Below, in pieces: positions 1,000 through 57,170 of a stretch of DNA of 64,000 nucleotides; position 1 is the stretch's first letter, and each line of letters begins with the position of its first letter. Source of the DNA: Octopus vulgaris (lineage: Eukaryota); NCBI GenBank assembly GCA_951406725.2, contig OX597841.1, forward strand, positions 26,288,001 to 26,352,000, given 5' to 3'. The notes under the pieces were generated by a model. The model was given only the letters and a program-made list of their open reading frames with translations, was not told where the DNA came from and did no database searches. The position numbers and the translations under genes are program-made.

Positions 1000-1462
1000 A
1001 CCAAGGCTGTATAGATATTAGAGCATGAGAAAGTAAGGAGGGATGTCATGAAGGGCATCGCTGTTGCACGTCCAGATGGGAAGGGTCTTCCTATGATGCT
1101 GACATGCAGTGTCTGTGCAAGACCTTGCCTCAGTAAAGCTGGACTCAAGAGTCATCTTTGTAGTCATAAAGATGAGTGACAACCAGGCCACTGGTGGTGG
1201 TGTTACACACCATACTAATCATATCTGTCGGGCATGTGGAAGAGAGTGTAATTCGGCAGGAGGACTTAAACAACATGCAAAGGTACATGAAGCCCAGTTA
1301 AAACTACAGCCGGCTATTACCAGTAAAGGTTTTAGTTGCCAATTCTGTACAAGACATTGTAGATCTTTAGCTGGGCTAAAAAGTCACGTTCGATCACAGC
1401 ACCGGTAACAGTTAAGCTTCGTGCAATGGCCATACTCGATAACGAGGGGGCAGCCATCATAT
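1000..1462 (+). mobile_element. 3' end of RTE-like non-LTR retrotransposon with three C2H2 zinc fingers, frameshifted
   Basis: Frame from 1081 gives CSVCARPCLSKAGLKSHLCSH; ORF 1109-1408 in another frame gives CRACGRECNSAGGLKQHAKVH and CQFCTRHCRSLAGLKSHVRSQH*; no TGEKP linkers; short 3' UTR ending CAGCCATCAT. Confidence 0.65.
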
Positions 1463-4599: not shown

Positions 4600-4872
4600 A
4601 AGAACGCTCCACGGTAGGTAGACCTTCTCGAAACAGCACCTAAATCCCCCTCAAATCGCACTCTACTGTCTTATGTATATCTGCATGAGCCAACGAGGGA
4701 GACCTCTACGTGGTAGTTTGATCTCCCAGAAATACCGACCAGGTCTCCCTCAAATCACAGCTTACTATCTTAAGTGTGTATATATATGAATGACCCAACG
4801 AGGGAGACCTCCATATCATATGTAGACAAGGTAGACATAGCAGCCAAATCTCCCTCAAATCGCAACTTACTG
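4600..4872 (+). repeat. ~95-bp dispersed/tandem repeat family (repeat E), ~3 degenerate units
   Basis: GAGCCAACGAGGGAGACCTCTAC..GGTAG..AGCAGCCAAATCTCCCTCAAATC; also at 36062-36180 and 47105-47875. Confidence 0.7.
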
Positions 4873-5617: not shown

Positions 5618-6655
5618 GGATGCGGCGAGCTGGCAGAATCATCAGCACGCCGGGCGAAGTACTTAACGGGATTTCGCCTGTTTTTTACGTTCTGAGTTCA
5701 AATTCCGCCGTGGTCGACTTTGCCTTTCATCGTTTCGGGGTCGATAAAATTAGATCCATTTGAGCGCCGGGGTCGCTGTAATCGACTGACCACCTCTCCC
5801 TATATTTCAGACTTAGCAAAATCATTTTTAATATAGTTTATTAAGGCAGCGAGCCGATAAAATCGTTGGTACGCCGGACAAAATGCTCTGCGGTTTTTCG
5901 TCCGCTTTTACGATCTGAGTTCAAATTCTTTCATCATTTGAGGGTCGATAAAATTAGATCCATTTGAGCACTGGGGTCGCTGTAATCGACTGACCACCTC
6001 TCCACATATTTCAGACTTAGCAAAATCATTTTTAATATCGTTTATTAAGGCAGCGAGCCGATGGAATCGTTGGTACGCCGGACAAAATGCTCCGCGGTAT
6101 TTCGTCCGCTTTTACAATCAGAGTTCAAATTCTTTCATCATTTCAGGGTCGATAAAATAAGATCCATTTGAGCACTGGGGTCGCTGTAATCGACTGACCA
6201 CCTCTCCCTATATTTCAGACTTAGCAAAATCATTTTTAATATCGTTTATTAAGGCAGCGAGTTAATGGAATCGTTGGTACGCCGGACAAAATGCTCCGCG
6301 GTATTTCGTCCGCTTTTACAATCTGAGTTCAAATTCTTTCATCATTTCAGGGTCGATAAAATAAGATCCATTTGAGCACTGGGGTCGCTGTAATCGACTG
6401 ACCACCTCTCCCTATATTTCAGACTTAGCAAAATCATTTTTAATATCGTTTATTAAGGCAGCGAGCCAAAGGAATCGTTGGTACGCCGGACAAAATGCTC
6501 TGCGGTATTTCGTCCGCTTTTACGATCTGAGTTCAAATTCTTTCAAGGTCGACTTTGCTTTTCATCATTTCAGGGTCGATAAAATGAGATCCATTTGAGC
6601 ACTGGGGTCGCTATAGTCAACTGACCCCCTCTTCTCATGTTTCAGTCCTAGCATA
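5618..6655 (+). mobile_element. Tandem array of five diverged SINE-B copies including heads, 204-bp period
   Basis: Heads at ~5619, 5843, 6047, 6251, 6455; core GAGTTCAAATTC..GGGTCGATAAAAT..CACTGGGGTCG. Confidence 0.85.
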
Positions 6656-9483: not shown

Positions 9484-10461
9484 TTATAATTCTTTACTGC
9501 CCACAAGGGGCGAAACATAGAGGGGACAAACAAGGACAGACATAGGTATTAAGTCGATTACATCGACCCCAGTGCGTAACTGGTACTTTATTTATCGACC
9601 CCGAAAGGATGAAAGGCAAAGTCGACCTCGGCGGAATTTGAACTCAGAACGTAACGACAGACGAAATACCTATTTCTTTATTACCCAGAAGGGGCTAAAC
9701 ATAGAGGGGACAAACAAGAACAGACATAGGTATTAAGTCGATTACATCGACCCCAGTGCGTAACAGGTACTTAATTTATCGACCCCGAAAGGATGAAAGG
9801 CAAAGTCGACCTCGGCGGAATTTGAACTCAGAACGTAACGACAGATGAAATACCTATTTCTATTTCTTTACTACCCACAAGGGGCTAAAGACAGAGGGGA
9901 CAAACAAGGACAGGCATAGGGATTAAGTCGATTACATCGACCCCAGTGCGACACTGGTACTTTATTTATCGACCCCGAAAGGATGAAAGGCAAAGTCGAC
10001 CTCGGCGGAATTTGAACTCAGAACGTAACGACAGACGAAATACCTATTTCTTTATTACCCACAAGGGGCTAAAGACAGAGGGGACAAACAAGGACAGACA
10101 TAGGTATTAAGTCGATTACATCGACCCCAGTGCGTAACTGGTACTTTATTTATCGACCCTGAAAGGATGAAAGGCAAAGTCGACCTCGGCGGAATTTGAA
10201 CTCAGAACGTAACGACAGACGAAATACCTATTTCTTTATTACCCACAAGGGGCTAAACACAGAGGGGACAAACAAGGACAGACATAGGTATTAAGTCGAT
10301 TACATCTACCCCAGTGCGTAACTGGTGCTTAATTTATCGACCCCGGAAGGATGAAAGGCAAAGTCGACCTCGGCGGAATTTGAACTCAGAACGTAACGAC
10401 AGACGAAATACCGCTAAGCGTTTCGCCCGGCGCGCTAACGTTTCTGCCAGCTCGCCGCCTT
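9484..10461 (-). mobile_element. SINE-B concatemer: one head plus five ~184-bp bodies, 12-bp TSD
   Basis: Junction GAAATACCTATTTC at 9663, 9847, 10037, 10221; head near 10410-10461; AAAAGTAATGAA at 9472-9483 and 10462-10473. Confidence 0.9.
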
Positions 10462-10799: not shown

Positions 10800-11216
10800 A
10801 AATTTGAGATTACATAGACAGTATTTTACGTAGGATATGGGCAGTTCCCATGAGCACTATCTTTTGAATTTCTGCCATTTTGGAGTTTCCTGGTATCTGA
10901 GCTAGGTAGCAATCAGCCACTTTTGCTATCATTCCCAGGGCACCTATGACAACAGGTATTGTTTTAATCTTCAGGTTCCACATTTTGCTAATATCTATTT
11001 CAAGATCTTTGTACTTGCTCAGTTTTTGGTAGGTCTTGACAGATACGTTTATATCGATTGGAACAGTCATATCAATGAGGAGGCATGATTTTTTGTCTGA
11101 AGTCTTTCAATATAATGTCTGGCCTATTTGCATCTATCTTTCTGTCAGTTTGAATGTTCCAGAGGAGTGAGACGTGATCATTTTCAAGCACTGGAGGTGG
11201 TTTGTGTCCCCAACAA
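10800..11216 (-). mobile_element. 5'-truncated R4/Dong-like non-LTR retrotransposon, restriction-like endonuclease domain
   Basis: HKPPPVLENDHVSLLWN..TDRKIDANRPDIILKD / KSCLLIDMTVPIDIN..QKLSKYKDL..MWNLK..IPVVIGALG..IQKIVLMGTAHILRKIL*; one frameshift in an A-run near 11090; 5' junction at (TAA)n. Confidence 0.85.
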
Positions 11217-11276
11217 TGATTATTATTATTATTACTATTATTATTATTGTTGTTGTTGTTGTTGATGTTATTATTA

Positions 11277-11881
11277 AGGTGTTGAGCTGGCAGAATCGTT
11301 ACCGTGCTGGATGAAATGTTTAGCAGTATTTCGCCCATCACTGCGTTCTGAGTTCGAATTCCGCCGAGGTCGACTTTGTCTTTCATATTTTTCAGGGTCG
11401 ATAAATTAAGTACCAGTGAAACACTGGGTCGATGTAATCGACTAGTCTCCCACCACCCCACAAAATTTCAGGCCTTGTGCCTATAGTTGAAAGGATTATT
11501 AATGTGGCGGGTTGGAAAGTCAGAAAGGTGGCACAATCGGCAGCGCGTCGGACAAAATGCTTAGTGGTATTTTGTCCATCATTACGTTCTGAGTTCGCAT
11601 TCCGCCGAGGTCGACTTTCGTTTCGAGGTCGATAAAATAAGTACCAGTTGGATACTGGGGTCGATGCAATCGACTAAACCCCTTCCAGTTGATTTCAAGC
11701 TTTGTGTCTATAACAGAAATGGTTGTCCGTCTTTACGTTCTGAGTTCAAATTCTGCCTAGGTCGAGTTTGCATTTTATCGTTTCGAGGTCTATAAAATTA
11801 GTACCAGTTGGATACTGGGGTCGATGTAATCGACCGGTCCCCTCCCCCAAAATTACAGGCCTTGTGCCTTTAGTAGAAACG

Positions 11882-15071: not shown

Positions 15072-15638
15072 GTATTACCCACAAGGGGCTAAACAAAGAG
15101 GGTGACAAACAAGGACAGACAAACGGATTAAGTCGATTACATCGACCCCAGTGCGTAACTGGTACTTAATTTATCGACCTCGAAAGGATGAAAGGCAAAG
15201 TCGACCTCGGCGGAATTTGAACGTAACGAAAGACGAAATACCTATTTCTTTACTACCCATAAGGGGCTAAACAAAGAGGGGACAAACAAGGACAGACGAA
15301 TGGATCAAGTCGATTACATCGACCCCAGTGCGTAACTGGTACTTAATTTATCGACCTCGATAGGATGAAAGGCAAAGTCGACCTCGGCGGAATTTGAACT
15401 CAGAACGTAGCGGCAGACGAAATACCTATTTCTTTACTACCCACAAGGGGCTAAACATAGAGGGGACGAACAAGGACAGACAAACGAATTAAGTCGATTA
15501 CATCGACCCCAGTGCGTAACTGGTACTTAATTTATCGACCTCGAAAGGATGAAAGGCAAAGTCGACCTCGGCGGAATTTGAACTCAGAACGTAACGGCAG
15601 ACGAAATACGGCTACGCATTTCGCCCGGCGTGCTAACT
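15072..15638 (-). mobile_element. SINE-B concatemer: partial head plus three bodies
   Basis: Junction GAAATACCTATTTC at 15235 and 15419. Confidence 0.9.
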
Positions 15639-17581: not shown

Positions 17582-17802
17582 TATTTCTTTACTACCCACA
17601 AGGGGCTAAACACAGAGGGAACAAACAAGGACAGACAAACGGATTAAGTCGATTACATCGACCCCAGTGCGTAACTGGTACTTAATTTATCGACCCCGAA
17701 AGGATGAAAGGCAATGTTGACCTCGGCGGAACTTGAACTCAGAACGAATCGGCAGACGAAATACAGCTACGCATTTCGCCCGGCGTGCTAACGGTTCTGC
17801 CA
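17582..17802 (-). mobile_element. SINE-B monomer with 9-bp TSD, inserted in a decayed tRNA-like head
   Basis: GACAATAAC on both sides; flanks join to GTGGCCTGGTTGGTAAGG..GTTCAGTTCC. Confidence 0.85.
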
Positions 17803-33111: not shown

Positions 33112-33149
33112 TATTAATTAACGAGAGATGGATTTCGTATTAGACCTTT

Positions 33150-33762
33150 ATCATCATCATCATTGTTCGACTGTGGTCGAGACATTGGAATTTACCATGC
33201 TACGCCAGACTTCATGGTCCATCATGGCATTCCGGAGGTCCTGTTGCTGGATGCCTGTATCCCTGGAGATTACATCAGAGTAGGAGAGTGTGCGCTCTCT
33301 GGTATTGCGAGTAGATGGCTTCCAGAGGAGAAGAGGAGAAATTACCTCTTTTTCAGCTCTGCAACAATGTCCAGCAAACTGGACTCTTCTACCTTTCACA
33401 AGAGATGATATGTATGTATATATATATCATCATCATCATTGTCTCGACAGTGGTCGAGACAATGGAATTTACCATGCTACGCCAGACTTCACGGTCAATC
33501 ATGGCATTACGGAGGTCCTGTTGCTGGATGCCTGTATCCCTGGAGATTACATCAGGGTAGGAGAGTGTGCGCCCTCTGGTATTGCGAGTAGATGGCTTCC
33601 AGAGGAGAAGAGTAGAAATTACCTCTTTTTCAGCTCTACAACAATGTCCAGCAAACTGGACTCTCCTACCTTTCACAAGAGATGACACAGGTGGTGGTTT
33701 CCCATATATTTGCATTTTGGTTGGATGGCGCTTCCACGAGAGATTTTGAGCTTTTATACCAA
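33150..33762 (-). mobile_element. Two tandem 3' fragments of an RTE-clade LINE with (GAT)n tails
   Basis: SWKRHPTKMQIYG..VKGRRVQFAGHCCRAEKEVISTLLLWKP..RGRTLSYPDVISRDTG..DLRNAMIDREVWRSMV; copies at 33150-33408 and 33426-33762. Confidence 0.85.
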
Positions 33763-34014
33763 GGCAGCCGATCCTAAAAATCTAAAAAGATCCAGACCGA
33801 AGGTCTGATACATGGGTTCTCAACGTAAGCGTTACTGCCCGCCACCAGCTGGCCGTTGAGACGGTCCAGATGGCTGCTGGTGTCTAAGGGGGCGGTATGT
33901 GCGTGTGGGGAGGCGCGGTAGAGAAAAAGGAGGCGTTGGGAGGAAGGCAGTGAATTGGGGGGACACTGTGAATTTATTATATTATTATTATAGTATTGTG
34001 TACAAATTATATTT

Positions 34015-40181: not shown

Positions 40182-41077
40182 TCAGTTTGAGTCAAAAGGT
40201 GCTTTTGTATTTCAAGTTTCTTGTGAATAGTTCAAGTGGGTAGATTTCATACGAAAAGCATTTATTTATCACAATTTTTCCCATCATATTCTGTTGTCTG
40301 TTCCCATTGTTGTACCAGAAACTCAATTTAACGTTTTTATCATTTGCCTGGTTTTGAGGAAAGAAAACACCCACCCTGCACCCTTTTAACTTTCGTCCGA
40401 GTAGGAAATGATCCATAGCTCGAAGGAGGTGATAATATAATGGTTGCAAGGCAGGGTATGGCTGCACTTCCAGCCCCTAGGATTTTTGAAGTTTGTACTG
40501 GGGCATTCTCGTGCTGCAGGAGCAGGAGAAGGAGCACGCGTTTTCGATCGATCAGTGCCGGGTAGCGGGCTTTTAAAGCATCAAATACTCGCTGTAGGCG
40601 TTGGGCATAAAGGTTAGCGTTTACAGCATGACCATCCGGGACAAGCTGAAAGTGCAGCACCGCTTCGAAATTCCCCCAAACGCCCCAAAACGCACAACAC
40701 GACCTTCTGCTCAAAACCGCTCTTGTTTGACAACAGGTTCTGAAAACTGTCGAGGACAAAACCACTGATTTCTCTTTTAAGATGGTTAGTGCAACTCTGG
40801 TGGTGGGGGTAGAGTCGGTGTTGTTGGTGCTGGTGATGGTGGTGGTCGTTATCGTTGTCGTCACCATCGTCGTTGAGCCGGTGGTGGTGATGGTGGAGGT
40901 GGAGGTGGTGGTGATGGTGGAGGTGGTAGTGATGGTGGGGGTGGGGTGGTGGAGCCGGCGGTGGTCTCGGTGGTGCTGCTGGTGAGATGAATGGTATCAC
41001 GGTATTGGTTGGAATTGTTATTACTCTTGCTGGTGGTACTGTTGGTGGTATAGGTGACGGTGGCTCAAACGTACATA

Positions 41078-41128
<51 letters not shown>

Positions 41129-42085
41129 GTTTTAAGATTTGAGCATAAAGTATCAAATATTCGCTATAGTCGTTGAGCATAAACCGTTGACAGCATGACC
41201 ATCCGGGTCAAGCTCAAAGTGCAATACGACTTGAAAATTCCCCCAAACGCCCCAAAACGCACAACACGACCTTCTGCTAAAAACCGCTCTTATTTGACAG
41301 CAAGTTCTGTAAACTATCGAAGGCAGAATCACCGATTTCTCTTATTAAGATTTGAGCATAAATCATCAAGTACTCGCTGCTGTAGTCGTTGAGCATAAAG
41401 CGTTGAACATAAAATGTTGAGCTTTAATCTTTGAGTATAAAGCGTTCAATGCATGACCATCCGGAACAAGCTCAAAGTGTAACATCATCTCGAAATTTCA
41501 CCAAAAGTCCCAAAAACAAGATTGAAAAGTTCTGAAGCCTGGCGAGAACAAAGCCACTGCTTTCTCTTATTAGGATTCCGAAAATAGATCCATTTTTCAT
41601 CCCCAGTTATCCGTCGAAGCCAAAACCGGGCCTCCCGAGGATTTGCTAACAGCTTTAAAACCAGTTGTCAAACAAGAGCGGTTTTGAGCAGAAGGTCGTG
41701 TTGTGCGTTTTGGAGCGTTTGGTGGAATTTCCAGGTCGTGTTGCACTTTGAGCTTGACCCGGATGGTCATGCTGTCAGCGCTTTATGCTCAACGCTTTAT
41801 GCTCAACGACTACAGCGAGTATTTGATGCCTTACGCTCAAATCTTAAAAAGAGAAATCAGTGGTTTTGTCCTCGACAGTTTTCAGAACCTGTTGTCAAAC
41901 AAGAGCGGTTTTGAGCAGAAGGTTTTGTTGTGCGTTTTGGAGCGTTTGGTGGAATTTCCAGGTCGTGTTGCACTTTGAGCTTGTCCCATAAGGTCATGCT
42001 GTGAACGATTTATGCTCAATGTTCACCTTTCGTTGAGCCTGGATATTGGTCAGTTCATGAGGTGCTTCTGGACAGTGCCTGTTTG
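40180..42085. mobile_element. Rearranged mariner remnant (tandem and inverted transposase segments)
   Basis: Minus strand NANLYAQRLQRVFDALKARYPALIDRKRVLL..QHENAP..YHLLRAMDHFL; segments repeated at 41131-41660 (-) and 41660-42010 (+). Confidence 0.8.
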
Positions 42086-46068: not shown

Positions 46069-46322
46069 TGGACGAGAAATTGCTTGTGAAATACAATAGG
46101 AGCTGGAACGATAGCGATGGTATTTAAACGTTGTGGTTTGGTTACCTGTGCCCACCTGCGAATGGGGAGGTGTTGCGGTTGAGGGCCGAAATACCTAATG
46201 TTCGTCGGATACTTTGACGGCATCAGTTCCTTCCTGTTAATTCTACATTTACCAAACCTGAATGAAATGGAAACATCTTCTTTTCGACAAATAATTGATA
46301 TCAAAACAAAGAAAATCCTTAA

Positions 46323-46799
46323 TTACATTATTTCCATTTGACGGATATTTGTCCTCATCTTGTTTGTTGTTAACACAACGTTTCGGCTGATATACCCTCA
46401 GCCTTCATCAGGTGTCTTGGGGGAATTTCGAACCTCGGTTCTCATTCCTTAGGTATTTTCGATATTATTATTATTATTATTTACATTATTTACATTTGAC
46501 GGATATTTGTCCTCATCTTGTTTGTTGTTAACACAACATTTCGGCTGATATACCCTCCAGCCTTCATCAGGTGTCTTAGGGAAATTTCAAACCTGGGTTC
46601 TCATTCCTTAGGTATTTTCGATATTATTATTATTATTATCATTATTATTATTATTTACATTATTTACATTCGACGGATATTTGTCCTCATCTTGTTTGTT
46701 GTTAACACAACGTTTCGGCTGATATACCCTCCAGCCTTCATCAGGTGTCTTGGGGAAATTTCAGTTCAAACCTGGGTTCTCATTCCTCAGGTATTTTCG

Positions 46800-46873
<74 letters not shown>

Positions 46874-46912
46874 TTCTATATTTAAGAGACGAGGAATTAT
46901 GTACATTATTTA

Positions 46913-46943
<31 letters not shown>

Positions 46944-47103
46944 GTTATTATTATTTACATTATTTACATTTTTTATATTTGACGGATATTTGTCCTCATC
47001 TTGTTTGTTGTTAACACAACGTTTCGGCTGATGTACCCTCCAGCCTTCATCAGGTGTCTTGGGGGGAAATTTCGAACCTGGGTTCTCTTTCCTAAGGTAT
47101 TGT
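46323..47103 (-). repeat. Four-copy tandem repeat, each unit with a minimal type I hammerhead motif, separated by (TAA)n
   Basis: Minus GACAC-CTGATGA-A-GGCTG..CAGCC-GAAA-C-GTT-GTGTT at 46372-46416, 46530-46575, 46704-46749, 47013-47058. Confidence 0.8.
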
Positions 47104-47104
47104 T

Positions 47105-47875
47105 TGCTACATGTCTCTGTGAGTCAAGGAAGGAGACCTCTACATGGTAGCTGACCCGGGTAGAAATAGCAGCCTAATCTCCTTAAAATCACTCCCTACC
47201 GTCATATGTATGTATGCATGAGCCAAGAATTAAGATCTATTTGTTTGCTAGAACTGTTAGAAATAGCAGCCACGTCTCCCTCAAATCACACTCTACTGTC
47301 TTATGTATGTATATAAGTATGTATGAGCCAGTGAGGGAGACATCTGCATAGTAGCAAGACGTGGTAGAAATAGCAGTCAAAGTATGTATGAGCCAATGAG
47401 GATGATCTCAATGTATGAGCCGACGAGGGAGATTTCTACAAAGTAGCTAGAACTGTTAGAAATAGCAGCCAAATCTCCCTCAAAATACTTCAAACTGTCT
47501 TCTGTAGGTACATATGTATGTATGAGCCAGCGAAGGAGATCTCTACAAGATAACTAAACTTGTATCAAATAGCAGCCAAATCTCCCTCAGATCACGTCCT
47601 CCTGTCGTATGTATATATGTATGTATGAGCCAGTGAGGGGACCTCTGCAAGGTAGCTAGACCAGGTAGAAATAGCAACCAAATCTCCCTCAAAACACTCC
47701 TAGCTGTCTTATGTATGTATATATGTATGTATGAGCCAGTGAGGGGACCTCTGCAAGGTAGCTAGACCAGGTAGAAATAGCAACCAAATCTCCCTCAAAA
47801 CTCTCTCAACTGTTTTATGTATGTATATATGTATGTATGAGCCAATGAAGGAGACCTGTACATGGTAGCTAGACC
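47105..47875 (+). repeat. Tandem array of repeat E, ~8 units of ~95 bp
   Basis: GAGCCA.TGAGGGAGACCTCT.CA.GGTAGCTAGAC..GTAGAAATAGCAGCCAAATCTCCCTCAAA. Confidence 0.85.
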
Positions 47876-48344
47876 ACTATCACCACAACCACAACTAGTA
47901 CGATGACCACAACTACTACCACCGCAACAAGAAGAACCGTATCAATTGTGACAATTATCAAATTGCATAACCACGCCCCCGCCCAGAAAAAATAAAAGAA
48001 CTACCACTACCACCACCACCACCACATCATCACCATCATCATTGTCATCGTCATCATCACCACCACCATCGTCACCTCATCATCGCTGTCACAACCATCA
48101 CCATCGCCACCACCACCACCACCACCAAATCCACCACCACTAATATCACAAGCTTATCAGACATCACCGCAACCCCCCCTCCCACTATCATCATTATCAT
48201 CAGTACTACCACCCCTACTGCTACGAATATCACAACCACCACCACCACCACCACCACCACCACAAGAATTGCCACCGAAACACCAACATTACTTGTATCT
48301 TAAACACAATAATCCATACCACTATCAAACCATCTCATCTACTG

Positions 48345-48840: not shown

Positions 48841-48864
48841 AACTAGCCAACGAAGTGACATACC

Positions 48865-49645
48865 TATATCTTTATTACCCACAAGGCGCTAAACACAGAG
48901 GGGACAAACAAGGACAGACATAGGTATTAAGTCGATTATATCGACCCCAGTGCGTAACTGGTACTTAATTTATCGACCCCGAAAGGATGAAAGGCAAAGT
49001 CGACCTCGGCGGAATTTGAACTCACAACGTAACGCAGACGAAATACCTATTTCTTTATTACCCACAAGGGGCTAAACACAGAGGGGACAAACAAGGACAG
49101 ACATAGGTATTAAGTCGATTACATCGACTCCAGTGCGTAACTGGTACTTAATTTATCGACCCCGAAAGGATGAAAGGCAAAGTCGACCTCGGCGGAATTT
49201 GAACTCACAACGTAACGCAGACGAAATACCTATTTCTTTATTACCCACAAGGGGCTAAACACAGAGGGGACAAACAAGGACAGACATAGGTATTAAGTCG
49301 ATTACATCGACCCCAGTGCGTAACTGGTACTTAATTTATCGACCCCGAAAGGATGAAAGGCAAAGTCGACCTCGGCGGAATTTGAACTCAGAACGTAACG
49401 CAGACGAAATACCTATTTCTTTATTACCCACAAGGGGCTAAACACAGAGGGGACAAACAAGGACAGGCATAGGTATTAAGTCGATTACATCGACCCCAGT
49501 GCGTAACTGGTACTTAATTTATCGACCCCGAAAGGATGAAAGGCAAAGTCGACCTCGGCGAAATTTGAACTCAGAACTAGGCGGCAGACGAAATACCGCT
49601 AAGCATTTCGCCCGGCGTGCTAACGTTTCTGCCAGCTCGCCGGCT
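48865..49645 (-). mobile_element. SINE-B concatemer: head plus four 183-bp bodies, 11-bp TSD
   Basis: Junctions at 49040, 49223, 49406; AGTGACATACC at 48854 and 49646. Confidence 0.9.
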
Positions 49646-54775: not shown

Positions 54776-55286
54776 TGATGAGGGAGACCTGTACATGGTA
54801 GCTAGACCACTATCACCACAACCACAACTAGTACGATGACCACAACTACTACCACCGCAACAAGAAGAACCGTATCAAATGTAACAATTATCAAATTGCA
54901 TAACCACGCCCCCGCCCAGAAAAAATAAAGGAAGAACAAACTACCACTACCACCACCACCACATCATCACCATCATCATTGTCATCGTCATCATCACCAC
55001 CACCATCGTCACCTCATCATCGCTGTCACAACCATCATCATCATTACCACCATCACCATCGCCACCACCACCACCACCAACTCCACCACCACTAATATCA
55101 CAAGCTTATCAGACATCACCGCAACCCCCCTCCCACTATCATCATTATCATCAGTACTACCACCCCTACTGCTACGAATATCACAACCACCACCACCACC
55201 ACCACCACCACCACAAGAATTGCCGCCGAAACACCAACATTACTTGTATCTTAAACACAATAATCCATACCACTATCATACCATCT

Positions 55287-55326
<40 letters not shown>

Positions 55327-55645
55327 ATCATCACCATCATCATTGTCATCGTCATCACCACCATCGTCACCTCATCATCGCTGTCACAACCATCATCATC
55401 ATCATTACCACCATCACCATCGCCACCACCACCACCAACTCCACCACCACCATCAACACCACCACCACTAATATCACAAGCTTATCAGACATCACCGCAA
55501 CCCCCCTCCCACTATCATCATTATCATCTGTACTACCACCCCTACTGCTACGAATATCACAACCACCACCACAAGAATTGCCGCCGAAACACCAACATTA
55601 CTTGTATCTTAAACACAATAATCCATACCACTATCATACCATCTC

Positions 55646-55681
<36 letters not shown>

Positions 55682-56017
55682 ATCATCACCATCATCATTG
55701 TCATCGTCATCACCACCATCGTCACCTCATCATCGCTGTCACAACCATCATCATCATCATTACCACCATCACCATCGCCACCACCACCACCAACTCCACC
55801 ACCACCACCAACTCCACCACCACTAATATCACAAGCTTATCAGACATCACCGCAACCCCCCTCCCACTATCATCATTATCATCAGTACTACCACCCCTAC
55901 TGCTACGAATATCACAACCACCACCACCACCACCACCACCACCACAAGAATTGCCGCCGAAACACCAACATTACTTGTATCTTAAACACAATAATCCATA
56001 CCACTATCATACCATCT

Positions 56018-56051
<34 letters not shown>

Positions 56052-56866
56052 ATCATCACCATCATCATTGTCATCGTCATCACCACCATCGTCACCTCAT
56101 CATCGCTGTCACAACCATCATCATCATTAGCACCATCACCATCGCCACCACCACCACCAACTCCACCACCACCATCAACACCACCACCACTAATATCACA
56201 AGCTTATCAGACATCACCGCAACCCCCCTCCCACTATCATCATTATCATCAGTACTACCACCCCTACTGCTACGAATATCACAACCACCACCACCACCAC
56301 CACCACCACCACTAATATCACAAGCTTATCAGACATCACCGCAACCCCCTCCCACTATCATCATTATCATCAGTACTACCACCCCTACTGCTACGAATAT
56401 CACAACCACCACCACCACCACCACCACCACCACTAATATCACAAGCTTATCAGACATCACCGCAACCCCCTCCCACTATCATCATTATCATCAGTACTAC
56501 CACCCCTACTGCTACGAATATCACAACCACCACCACCACCACCACCACCACCACTAATATCACAAGCTTATCAGACATCACCGCAACCCCCCTCCCACTA
56601 TCATCATTATCATCAGTACTACCACCCCTACTGCTACGAATATCACAACCACCACCACCATCAACACCACCACCACTAATATCACAAGCTTATCAGACAT
56701 CACCGCAACCCCCTCCCACTATCATCATTATCATCAGTACTACCACCCCTACTGCTACGAATATCACAACCACCACCACCACCACCACCACCACAAGAAT
56801 TGCCGCCGAAACACCAACATTACTTGTATCTTAAACACAATAATCCATACCACTATCATACCATCT

Positions 56867-56906
<40 letters not shown>

Positions 56907-57170
56907 ATCATCACCATCATCATTGTCATCGTCATCACCACCATCGTCACCTCATCATCGCGGTCACAACCATCATCATCATTACCACCATCACCATCGC
57001 CACCACCACCACCAACTCCACCACCACCATCAACACCACCACCAATAATATCACAAGCTTATCAGACATCACCGCAACCCCCCTCCCACTATCATCATTA
57101 TCATCTGTACTACCACCCCTACTGCTACGAATATCACGACGACGACGACGACCACCACCACCACCACAAG
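54776..57170 (+). repeat. Copy of 47845-48380 expanded into a complex minisatellite (~355-bp and ~120-bp units)
   Basis: Near-identical start GAGACCTGTACATGGTAGCTAGACCACTATCACC; recurrent AATATCACAAGCTTATCAGACATCACCGCAACCCC. Confidence 0.9.

What the first reader, a model, noticed from the sequence alone, without database searches (positions are those of the whole stretch)
46323..47103. Four-copy tandem array of minimal hammerheads with variable (TAA)n spacers
Seen on the minus strand in all four units: GACAC-CUGAUGA-A-GGCUG..CAGCC-GAAA-C-GUU-GUGUU. Stem III is only the loopless palindrome AACGUU, so it can form only between two copies. Unit 2 has a C-to-U change there. Spacing is 158, 174 and 309 nt because of microsatellite length and an extra insert. 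Known: Penelope-like terminal repeats carry minimal hammerheads that are proposed to act as dimers. Inference: a transcript through the array could self-process into unit-length and possibly circular RNAs, with the microsatellite setting the size.
Basis: partly seen in the sequence, partly recalled or inferred. Interest (0 to 1): 0.75.

Follow-up and report, generated by a model that had tools for sequence, protein, structure and literature searches.

The report
Penelope retrotransposon end-repeats with hammerhead ribozymes
Four leftover end-pieces of a Penelope-type jumping gene, each carrying that family's known tiny self-cutting RNA motif, sit in a row in octopus-like DNA; they are most likely ordinary, decaying repeat debris rather than a factory for circular RNA.

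Summary
There are four minimal type I hammerheads on the minus strand, spaced 309, 174 and 158 nt. They are the only descriptor hits in 64 kb; single hits arose in 5 of 300 resampled windows.

The unit is the terminal repeat (pLTR) and ORF start of a Penelope-type retroelement. Its translation matches residues 15-64 of an 847-aa reverse transcriptase plus GIY-YIG protein and repeat-derived exons in two Octopus gene models. The 'extra insert' is the element's own optional 34-nt tail. Inverted 5' copies occur in relatives.

No Penelope ORF lies in the window. An unrelated 184-nt repeat without a hammerhead also forms 3-, 4- and 5-mers here. One unit looks like a crossover hybrid, and the stem III CpG is decaying across relatives.

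Best reading: truncated pLTR insertions at (TAA)n, multiplied by local duplication. Microsatellite-sized circular RNAs are not supported. Predicted circles are weakly paired, and published Penelope hammerheads cut poorly or need the element's protein. New member of a known kind; low interest.

The parts
46871..47101 (-). Unit A (first in transcript order): pLTR/ORF-start remnant with an internal TAA expansion and the complete tail
47013..47058 (-). Minimal type I hammerhead A; predicted cut after 47018
46993..47001 (-). 5' arm of a 9-bp helix that pairs with the tail (46895-46887)
   Evidence: pair probabilities 0.71-0.99; 28 of 1000 tail shuffles bind as well
46916..46956 (-). TAA-rich tract inside unit A, between two copies of the 9-nt short-end motif
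46871..46904 (-).
   Evidence: same peptide in P0007, P0008, P0027, P0033; equivalent segment continues into the ORF in P0044, P0051, P0053, P0057
46802..46870 (-). (TAA)n tract, about 23 repeats, between the tail of A and unit B
46654..46801 (-). Unit B: remnant ending at the short (tail-less) end; private 5-nt insertion
46704..46749 (-). Minimal type I hammerhead B; predicted cut after 46709
46623..46653 (-). (TAA)n spacer, about 10 repeats with one interruption
46480..46622 (-). Unit C: tail-less remnant; 5' part like D, middle like B (possible crossover hybrid)
46530..46575 (-). Minimal type I hammerhead C, with CpG-type C-to-U in stem III; predicted cut after 46535
46464..46479 (-). (TAA)n spacer, about 5 repeats
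46321..46463 (-). Unit D: tail-less remnant running into unique flank
46372..46416 (-). Minimal type I hammerhead D (loop II one base shorter); predicted cut after 46377

Best explanation
Each unit is the 3'-most piece of an insertion of an endonuclease-bearing Penelope-like element (Penelope/Poseidon type). It is a pseudo-LTR containing the minimal hammerhead and the first codons of the RT-endonuclease ORF, ending at one of two reverse-transcription start points 34 nt apart (tail or no tail). SHOWN: identity of the unit, two 3' end points, inverted 5' copies in relatives, no ORF in the window. INFERRED: heavily 5'-truncated copies were inserted at or next to (TAA)n tracts. One or two such copies were then multiplied here by DNA-level duplication (unequal crossover or slippage), which the TAA tracts would favour, and the tracts have drifted in length since. 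In the parent element the hammerhead works, if at all, as a weak dimeric or protein-assisted ribozyme on the element's own tandem transcript. In this array it is a passenger that is decaying neutrally.
For: (1) A profile of 25 unit translations matches residues 15-64 of P0057 at 44.7 bits, E 2e-15 among 4 sequences. The window's 18-residue hammerhead register scores 64 against a next-best 12, and 0 of 1000 shuffles reach it. P0057 has RVT_1 at 383-584, GLNF, DKG, YVDD and a C-terminal GIY-CxC-YIG motif. P0044, P0051 and P0053 read in frame from the unit into the same ORF. [quoted passage not shown] (3) Last copies of 52 relatives (script): 18 tail, 23 short end or diverging, 8 uninformative, 3 ORF. 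By eye, after moving P0019, P0021, P0033, P0037 to tail, P0030 out of tail and P0057 to ORF: 21, 19, 8, 4. (4) An inverted copy lies directly 5' of the sense copy in 4 of 39 proteins and in P0053. (5) The PAc endonuclease prefers 5'-ATT-3'. (6) Background control: a 184-nt repeat without a hammerhead occurs in the window as single copies and as 5-, 3- and 4-mers, and ten other complex 100-280 nt units are tandemly arrayed. (7) Unit C shares its 5' junction and one derived base with D and a derived base with B. (8) The stem III codon is R in 43, H in 10 and C in 5 of 64 related copies, the CpG-decay pattern.
Against: The autonomous partner in this species was not found: P0057 and the in-frame relatives are unnamed records of other subfamilies, and their host is unchecked. 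The hybrid argument for unit C rests on three sites, one a CpG hot spot. B, C and D share a fixed 5' junction, also seen in P0034, which fits a short non-autonomous template as well as duplication. 15 of 52 relatives carry tandem sense copies (17 by script minus two mis-anchored rows, P0004 and P0057), so multimers are a family trait and may be made by the element's own machinery. All 12 core positions are intact in all four copies. Whether the TAA tracts are target DNA or seeded by the element's own AAT-rich end cannot be told apart; the tract inside unit A looks element-seeded.
Confidence: 0.72

Rival explanations
1. The array was laid down by the Penelope machinery itself: repeated insertion into or next to its own ATT-rich end, or copying of a multimeric short non-autonomous template. 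It is still dead at this locus, and no circular RNA is needed.
For: PLEs tend to insert into or beside existing copies (review PMC6765202). The PAc endonuclease cuts ATT in its own ORF-pLTR junction. The 5' junction is fixed in B, C and D. A related subfamily has 2-4 tandem copies at 40-43 aa period, once directly in front of the ORF (P0044).
Against: Hammerhead-free repeats form the same small arrays in this window. Unit C has a mosaic pattern. No target-site duplication is recognisable at the array ends (by eye).
Confidence: 0.17
2. The array is a working non-LTR retrozyme: a read-through transcript folds double hammerheads, releases 158-309 nt monomers, circularises them, and the circles are retro-inserted.
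For: The core is intact in 4 of 4 copies and three palindromes are perfect. It meets the operational definition of Li et al. 2026: tandem repeat with complete type I motifs folding below -5 kcal/mol. Retrozyme circles exist in a mollusc (PMC7229834). Penelope families are reported as recently active in O. vulgaris (PMC13282606), so helper protein might exist. Two Octopus gene models begin in this repeat in the hammerhead orientation.
Against: Predicted circles are 23-35% GC and 30-43% paired, unlike the highly self-paired retrozyme circles. The units differ in length and content, so one circle cannot template them. The tail is missing from two of three monomers. The double-hammerhead fold is 13-20 kcal/mol above the free fold of the array transcript and 8.5-13 above the best cofold of isolated motifs (such models under-rate hammerhead cores). 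Published activity of such motifs is low or protein-dependent, and no RNA-seq ends map at the PAc cut. 8 of 9 Xenopus dimers were inactive.
Confidence: 0.08
3. The hammerhead pattern is an incidental by-product of protein-coding constraint at the ORF start, or of chance.
For: The motif lies in an open frame that is homologous to a real ORF start. Rfam does not recognise it. The isolated motif prefers an inactive fold in which the core pairs with the cut site.
Against: Subfamilies differ by D/E exactly at the free N7 position, while G5A6 and G8A9 are compatible in 59 of 64 copies each and the AAA in 61 of 64. The motif matches the published PLE minimal consensus, including the extra base after A9 and G10.1-C11.1.
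Confidence: 0.03

Closest known systems
Minimal hammerheads in pLTRs of metazoan Penelope-like elements (Cervera and de la Pena 2014, PMC4209133)
   Same: Type I topology, 5-bp stem I, extra base between positions 9 and 10.1, G10.1-C11.1, palindromic loopless stem III; mostly found as remnants of truncated elements.
   Different: Here four remnants stand in tandem 158-309 nt apart with TAA spacers, not as singles or about 3 kb apart around an ORF. A cephalopod family is not named in the parts of the text I read.
PAc, Poseidon element of Anolis carolinensis (Frangieh et al. 2024, PMC11167929)
   Same: Hammerhead overlaps the ORF start; two 3' end points separated by a tail; stem-loop over the end region; AT-rich, ATT-containing junctions.
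   Different: No ORF in this window; sequence-level relation to PAc not tested; activity not tested.
Non-LTR retrozymes (Cervera and de la Pena 2020, PMC7229834; Li, Clavereau and Pollet 2026, bioRxiv 10.64898/2026.07.22.740005)
   Same: Tandem 150-450 nt repeats with a type I hammerhead in each unit, low GC, derived from PLE pLTRs, usually seven or fewer units.
   Different: Minimal rather than canonical ribozyme; units of unequal length and content; predicted circles poorly self-paired; no expression evidence.
Adineta vaga Penelope pLTRs (Arkhipova et al. 2013, PMC3846280)
   Same: pLTR includes the first codons of the ORF, optional tail of about 31 bp, inverted 5' copies, solo pLTRs.
   Different: No microsatellite-spaced multimer described in the passages read.

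Membership tests
Minimal type I hammerhead (PLE type) | CUGANGA and GAAA core, NUH cut site, stems I and II | tested here: met
   4 of 4 units
Minimal type I hammerhead (PLE type) | Palindromic 15.2-16.2, extra base after A9, G10.1-C11.1 | tested here: met
   palindrome in 3 of 4, a G-U wobble for the fourth; the other two features in 4 of 4 (features)
Minimal type I hammerhead (PLE type) | Self-cleavage as a dimer | not testable with these tools
   bench assay needed; folding models disfavour the active form
Penelope-like element, EN+ (pLTR remnant) | Unit homologous to the pLTR/ORF start of an RT + C-terminal GIY-YIG ORF | tested here: met
   P0057, P0053, P0044, P0051; shown on translations, not DNA
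Penelope-like element, EN+ (pLTR remnant) | Optional 30-40 bp tail | tested here: met
   34 nt in unit A, absent in B-D; two end classes in 52 relatives
Penelope-like element, EN+ (pLTR remnant) | Inverted 5'-truncated copy next to the pLTR | tested here: met
   in relatives: 4 of 39 proteins and P0053; not at this locus
Autonomous Penelope-like element at this locus | RT-endonuclease ORF in or near the array | tested here: not met
   tblastn of 4 PLE proteins against the window hits only the units, plus one E 0.82 match at 14.8 kb; no RT among 150 of 349 candidate frames scanned with Pfam
Penelope/Poseidon clade (of the related ORF P0057) | DKG motif, two cysteines inside GIY-YIG, no Zn-finger linker between RT and EN | tested here: met
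   motifs and cysteine positions against the description in PMC8557442; no tree built
Non-LTR retrozyme (operational, Li et al. 2026) | Tandem repeat with two or more consecutive complete type I motifs folding below -5 kcal/mol | tested here: met
   TRF row 46463-46834; motif MFE -12.6 to -14.6, though in an inactive fold
Non-LTR retrozyme (biological, Cervera 2020) | Monomer folds into a highly self-paired circle | tested here: not met
   30-43% paired; z -1.1, 0.0, -2.5 against 60 mononucleotide shuffles each
Non-LTR retrozyme (biological, Cervera 2020) | Canonical type I ribozyme with a closed helix III and loop 1-loop 2 contacts | tested here: not met
   no loop III in any unit; loop-loop contacts not modelled
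Non-LTR retrozyme (biological, Cervera 2020) | Expressed as linear and circular monomer RNA | not testable with these tools
   no RNA data
Rfam hammerhead families | Score at gathering threshold | tested here: not met
   0 matches in 64 kb; none among 12 weak matches at E up to 10

The most novel reading that the evidence does not exclude
This family is a fixed-length non-autonomous Penelope mini-element caught in the act of becoming a retrozyme. It targets and seeds (TAA)n, multimerises by self-insertion, and its multimers are cut by double hammerheads with the help of Penelope protein supplied in trans, giving circles of microsatellite-dependent size. It would also donate first exons to host genes. 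The related 129-nt subfamily, with perfect hammerhead-plus-tail tandems, would be the later stage of the same process.
Probability: 0.1. Interest if true: 0.55.

Novelty: new member of a known kind. Interest (0 to 1): 0.22.

Why it matters
As it most likely stands, it adds a cephalopod example to a pattern already in print and matters little. Its practical use is as a natural test template. Three perfect and one mutated palindrome, with and without the tail, lie in one 780-nt stretch. That lets one ask whether Penelope minimal hammerheads cut as dimers, need the element's protein, or need the tail helix, which is an open question in the cited papers. If circles were found, it would be a direct intermediate between a Penelope pLTR and a non-LTR retrozyme.

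Tried and rejected
Rfam: no hammerhead hit. The models do not cover the loopless form (my reading), so this is not evidence against the motif.

GTDB genomes: exact DNA pattern scan, 0 matches; P0057 scan, 25 pattern matches and 0 confirmed. No DNA of any related copy could be obtained, so all cross-copy tests are on predicted proteins, which are biased to open frames and to similarity with the query.

The first 'longer' protein search gave only 2 hits and no RT fusion. The representative search gave 38 hits, none with an ORF; P0015 was dropped as a low-complexity false hit (it was kept).

Source names of the unnamed relatives could not be looked up, so their host species stays unchecked. The Atlas search gave nothing. 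PDB sequence search of P0057 gave only weak RT matches, best E 0.0036.

The sigma-70 promoter scan is irrelevant for a eukaryote. ARAGORN found no tRNA.

Rejected: the 'extra insert' as foreign DNA; a single circular template for all four units; an autonomous element at this locus. My early note of a 36-aa period in relatives was wrong; it is 40-43 and 38 aa. The tail classifier mis-sorted six rows, listed under evidence.

Full report
1. Observation. The minus strand of 46321-47101 holds four homologous units. A type I hammerhead descriptor finds exactly four hits in the 64-kb window, with core C3 at 47053, 46744, 46570 and 46411 and predicted cuts after U17 at 47018, 46709, 46535 and 46377. 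The count stays four with stems relaxed to 2 bp. With stems of at least 4 bp, 0 of 200 dinucleotide shuffles and 5 of 300 Markov resamplings, never more than one hit, gave a match. Each unit has a 5-bp stem I, CUGAUGA, an extra A, a stem II opening with G-C, GAAA, and a loopless ACGU stem III (AUGU at 46570). Spacings are 309, 174 and 158 nt. Rfam does not recognise the motif. I name the units A to D in transcript order.

2. Host. I first suspected octopus from recall of the repeat landscape. A protein search with one unit's translation returned 2 of 2 candidates: an Octopus sinensis and an O. bimaculoides gene model whose first 30-40 residues come from this repeat. The unit is therefore a dispersed octopus repeat. 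The exact species of the window was not determined.

3. What the unit is. An HMMER search of 1.84 billion representatives gave 38 hits: one low-complexity false hit and 37 short predicted proteins containing the unit, in about three subfamilies. A profile of 25 translations, searched among longer proteins (8000 best candidates scored), gave 14 hits. Three of them, P0044, P0051 and P0053, read in frame from the unit into a longer ORF. P0053 in turn found 3 of 1096 longer candidates. One, P0057 (847 aa), is 49% identical over 237 residues and carries RVT_1 at 383-584. [quoted passage not shown] That fits the Penelope/Poseidon description in PMC8557442; no tree was built. The unit profile, which does not contain P0057, matches its residues 15-64 at 44.7 bits. 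The window's own hammerhead-spanning 18 residues score 64 there against a next-best 12, with 0 of 1000 shuffles as high. So each unit is a Penelope pseudo-LTR overlapping the ORF start. This link is shown on translations of unnamed records of sister subfamilies; the partner element in the window's species was not seen. No such ORF is in the window.

4. Other Penelope marks. The 'extra insert' in unit A (46904-46871, 34 nt) is the element's own continuation. The same peptide follows the unit in P0007, P0008, P0027 and P0033, and its equivalent leads into the ORF in the four ORF-linked proteins. Among 52 relatives the last copy ends with the tail in 18, ends short or diverges in 23, is uninformative in 8 and enters the ORF in 3 by script; by eye, correcting six rows, the counts are 21, 19, 8 and 4. 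This is the optional 30-40 bp tail of Penelope elements (PMC3846280; PMC8557442), explained in PAc as the stretch between two RT start sites (PMC11167929). The tail pairs with 47001-46993 in a 9-bp helix with probabilities 0.71-0.99; 28 of 1000 tail shuffles bind as well. In 44 motif matches in relatives the arms read DED in 35 and xSS in 33, which is compatible with the same helix (suggestive only). An inverted copy precedes the sense copy in 4 of 39 proteins and in P0053.

5. How the array arose. For local DNA duplication: ten other complex units of 100-280 nt are tandemly arrayed in this window, none with a hammerhead. A 184-nt family occurs as singles and as 5-, 3- and 4-mers, and a 112-nt family as 12 singles and a dimer. 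Unit C shares its 5' junction and one derived base with D and one derived CpG change with B, as an unequal crossover would give (three sites only). For element-driven tandems: B, C and D share a fixed 5' junction, and 15 of 52 relatives have tandem sense copies, at 38-43 aa period where measured. The TAA tracts fit the ATT preference of the PAc endonuclease, but the tract inside unit A seems to have grown from the element's own AAT-rich end, so both origins are open. Pairwise divergence of 2.6-6.0% with private indels argues against a very recent single event.

6. Does it make circles? Nothing here shows transcription; the only host-like exon found is a C2H2 zinc-finger frame 45 kb away on the plus strand (150 of 349 candidate frames scanned). 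The predicted circles are 23-35% GC and 30-43% paired, with z of -1.1, 0.0 and -2.5, whereas retrozyme circles are described as highly self-paired. Two of three lack the tail. The double-hammerhead fold costs 13-20 kcal/mol over the free fold for all 6 pairs, with the C mutation adding about 2 kcal/mol in isolated motifs; these models under-rate hammerhead cores, so this is weak evidence. Across 64 related copies the stem III codon is R in 43, H in 10 and C in 5, which is CpG decay; the change in unit C is the common one. On the other side, all 12 core positions are invariant in the four units, against 14 of 90 variable outside core and stems. Subfamilies also differ exactly at N7, which shows the motif was kept in the active lineages; coding overlap confounds this. 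Published data: dimers and trimers of a Schistosoma minimal motif cleave weakly; PAc needs its protein, cleavage is dispensable for insertion, and no reads end at the cut; 8 of 9 Xenopus dimers were inactive.

7. Comparison and novelty. It works like, and is, a Penelope pLTR minimal hammerhead. It meets the operational retrozyme definition of Li et al. 2026 but fails two tested features of the biological definition. The idea that such tandems come from pLTRs by local amplification is already in that preprint. I found no paper describing an octopus hammerhead in six searches (listings only for most), and 'hammerhead' does not occur in the O. vulgaris repeat annotation paper. Repbase and the supplements of the 2014 and 2020 papers and of the preprint, which I did not see, may list this family.

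8. What I saw of each paper. PMC4209133: parts 1-2 of 4. bioRxiv 10.64898/2026.07.22.740005: parts 1-3 of 5. PMC11167929: parts 1-2 of 4 and supplement 1, which gave only figure text. PMC7229834: parts 2-3 of 6. PMC8557442: abstract, sections 3 and 6, passages. PMC3846280, PMC6765202, PMC5680766 and PMC13282606: passages. Lunse et al. 2016 (RNA Biol 14:1499): title in a reference list only.

9. Verdict. Real, correctly described motif; known kind; most likely inert remnants multiplied locally (0.72). Element-built tandem 0.17, working retrozyme 0.08, not a ribozyme 0.03. Interest 0.22.

Noticed in passing
P0004 (O. sinensis) and P0005 (O. bimaculoides): Two unrelated host gene models start with sequence from this repeat, in hammerhead orientation, and both leave it at the same point. 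That point is next to a GTAAAT that could be a splice donor (window 46667-46662 in unit B). The repeat may act as an alternative first exon, or these may be annotation artefacts.
   Followed up: partly
P0006, P0009-P0011, P0013, P0018-P0021, P0043-P0045 and others: A sister subfamily forms 2-4 tandem copies with a 40-43 aa (about 129 nt) period, running from the hammerhead start to the tail end with no microsatellite. In P0044 they stand directly in front of the ORF. This is a better retrozyme candidate than the window's array; host unchecked.
   Followed up: partly
window 9490-10412, 15076-15609, 48860-49597; singles at 17585, 36245, 36739: A 184-nt dispersed repeat occurs both singly and as perfect head-to-tail 5-, 3- and 4-mers; a related 204-nt unit forms a 4-mer at 5724-6545. 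Small arrays of short repeats are strikingly common in this window.
   Followed up: partly
window 47115-47876: A degenerate array of about seven 106-nt units abuts the 5' end of unit A; two more copies lie at 4682-4859.
   Followed up: no
window 1103-1405 (+): Frame with C2H2 zinc-finger matches (best Pfam E 2e-7); likely a host exon.
   Followed up: no
window 40343-40996 (-) and 41588-41911 (+): Two mariner-type transposase fragments (Pfam Transposase_1) in opposite orientation.
   Followed up: no
window 11072-11467 (-) and 33149-33781: Fragments that look, from recall only, like the ends of a restriction-like-endonuclease LINE and of an RTE element (the latter tandemly duplicated, period 277). 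No Pfam hit.
   Followed up: no
window 54940-57169: Array of about 355-364 nt ACC/ACT-rich units; part of a 48-60 kb stretch with strong GC skew (about -0.5).
   Followed up: no
window 46770-46781 (-) and equivalents in the other units: A short palindrome lies upstream of the hammerhead in each unit; palindromes near pLTR 5' ends are described in PMC3846280.
   Followed up: no
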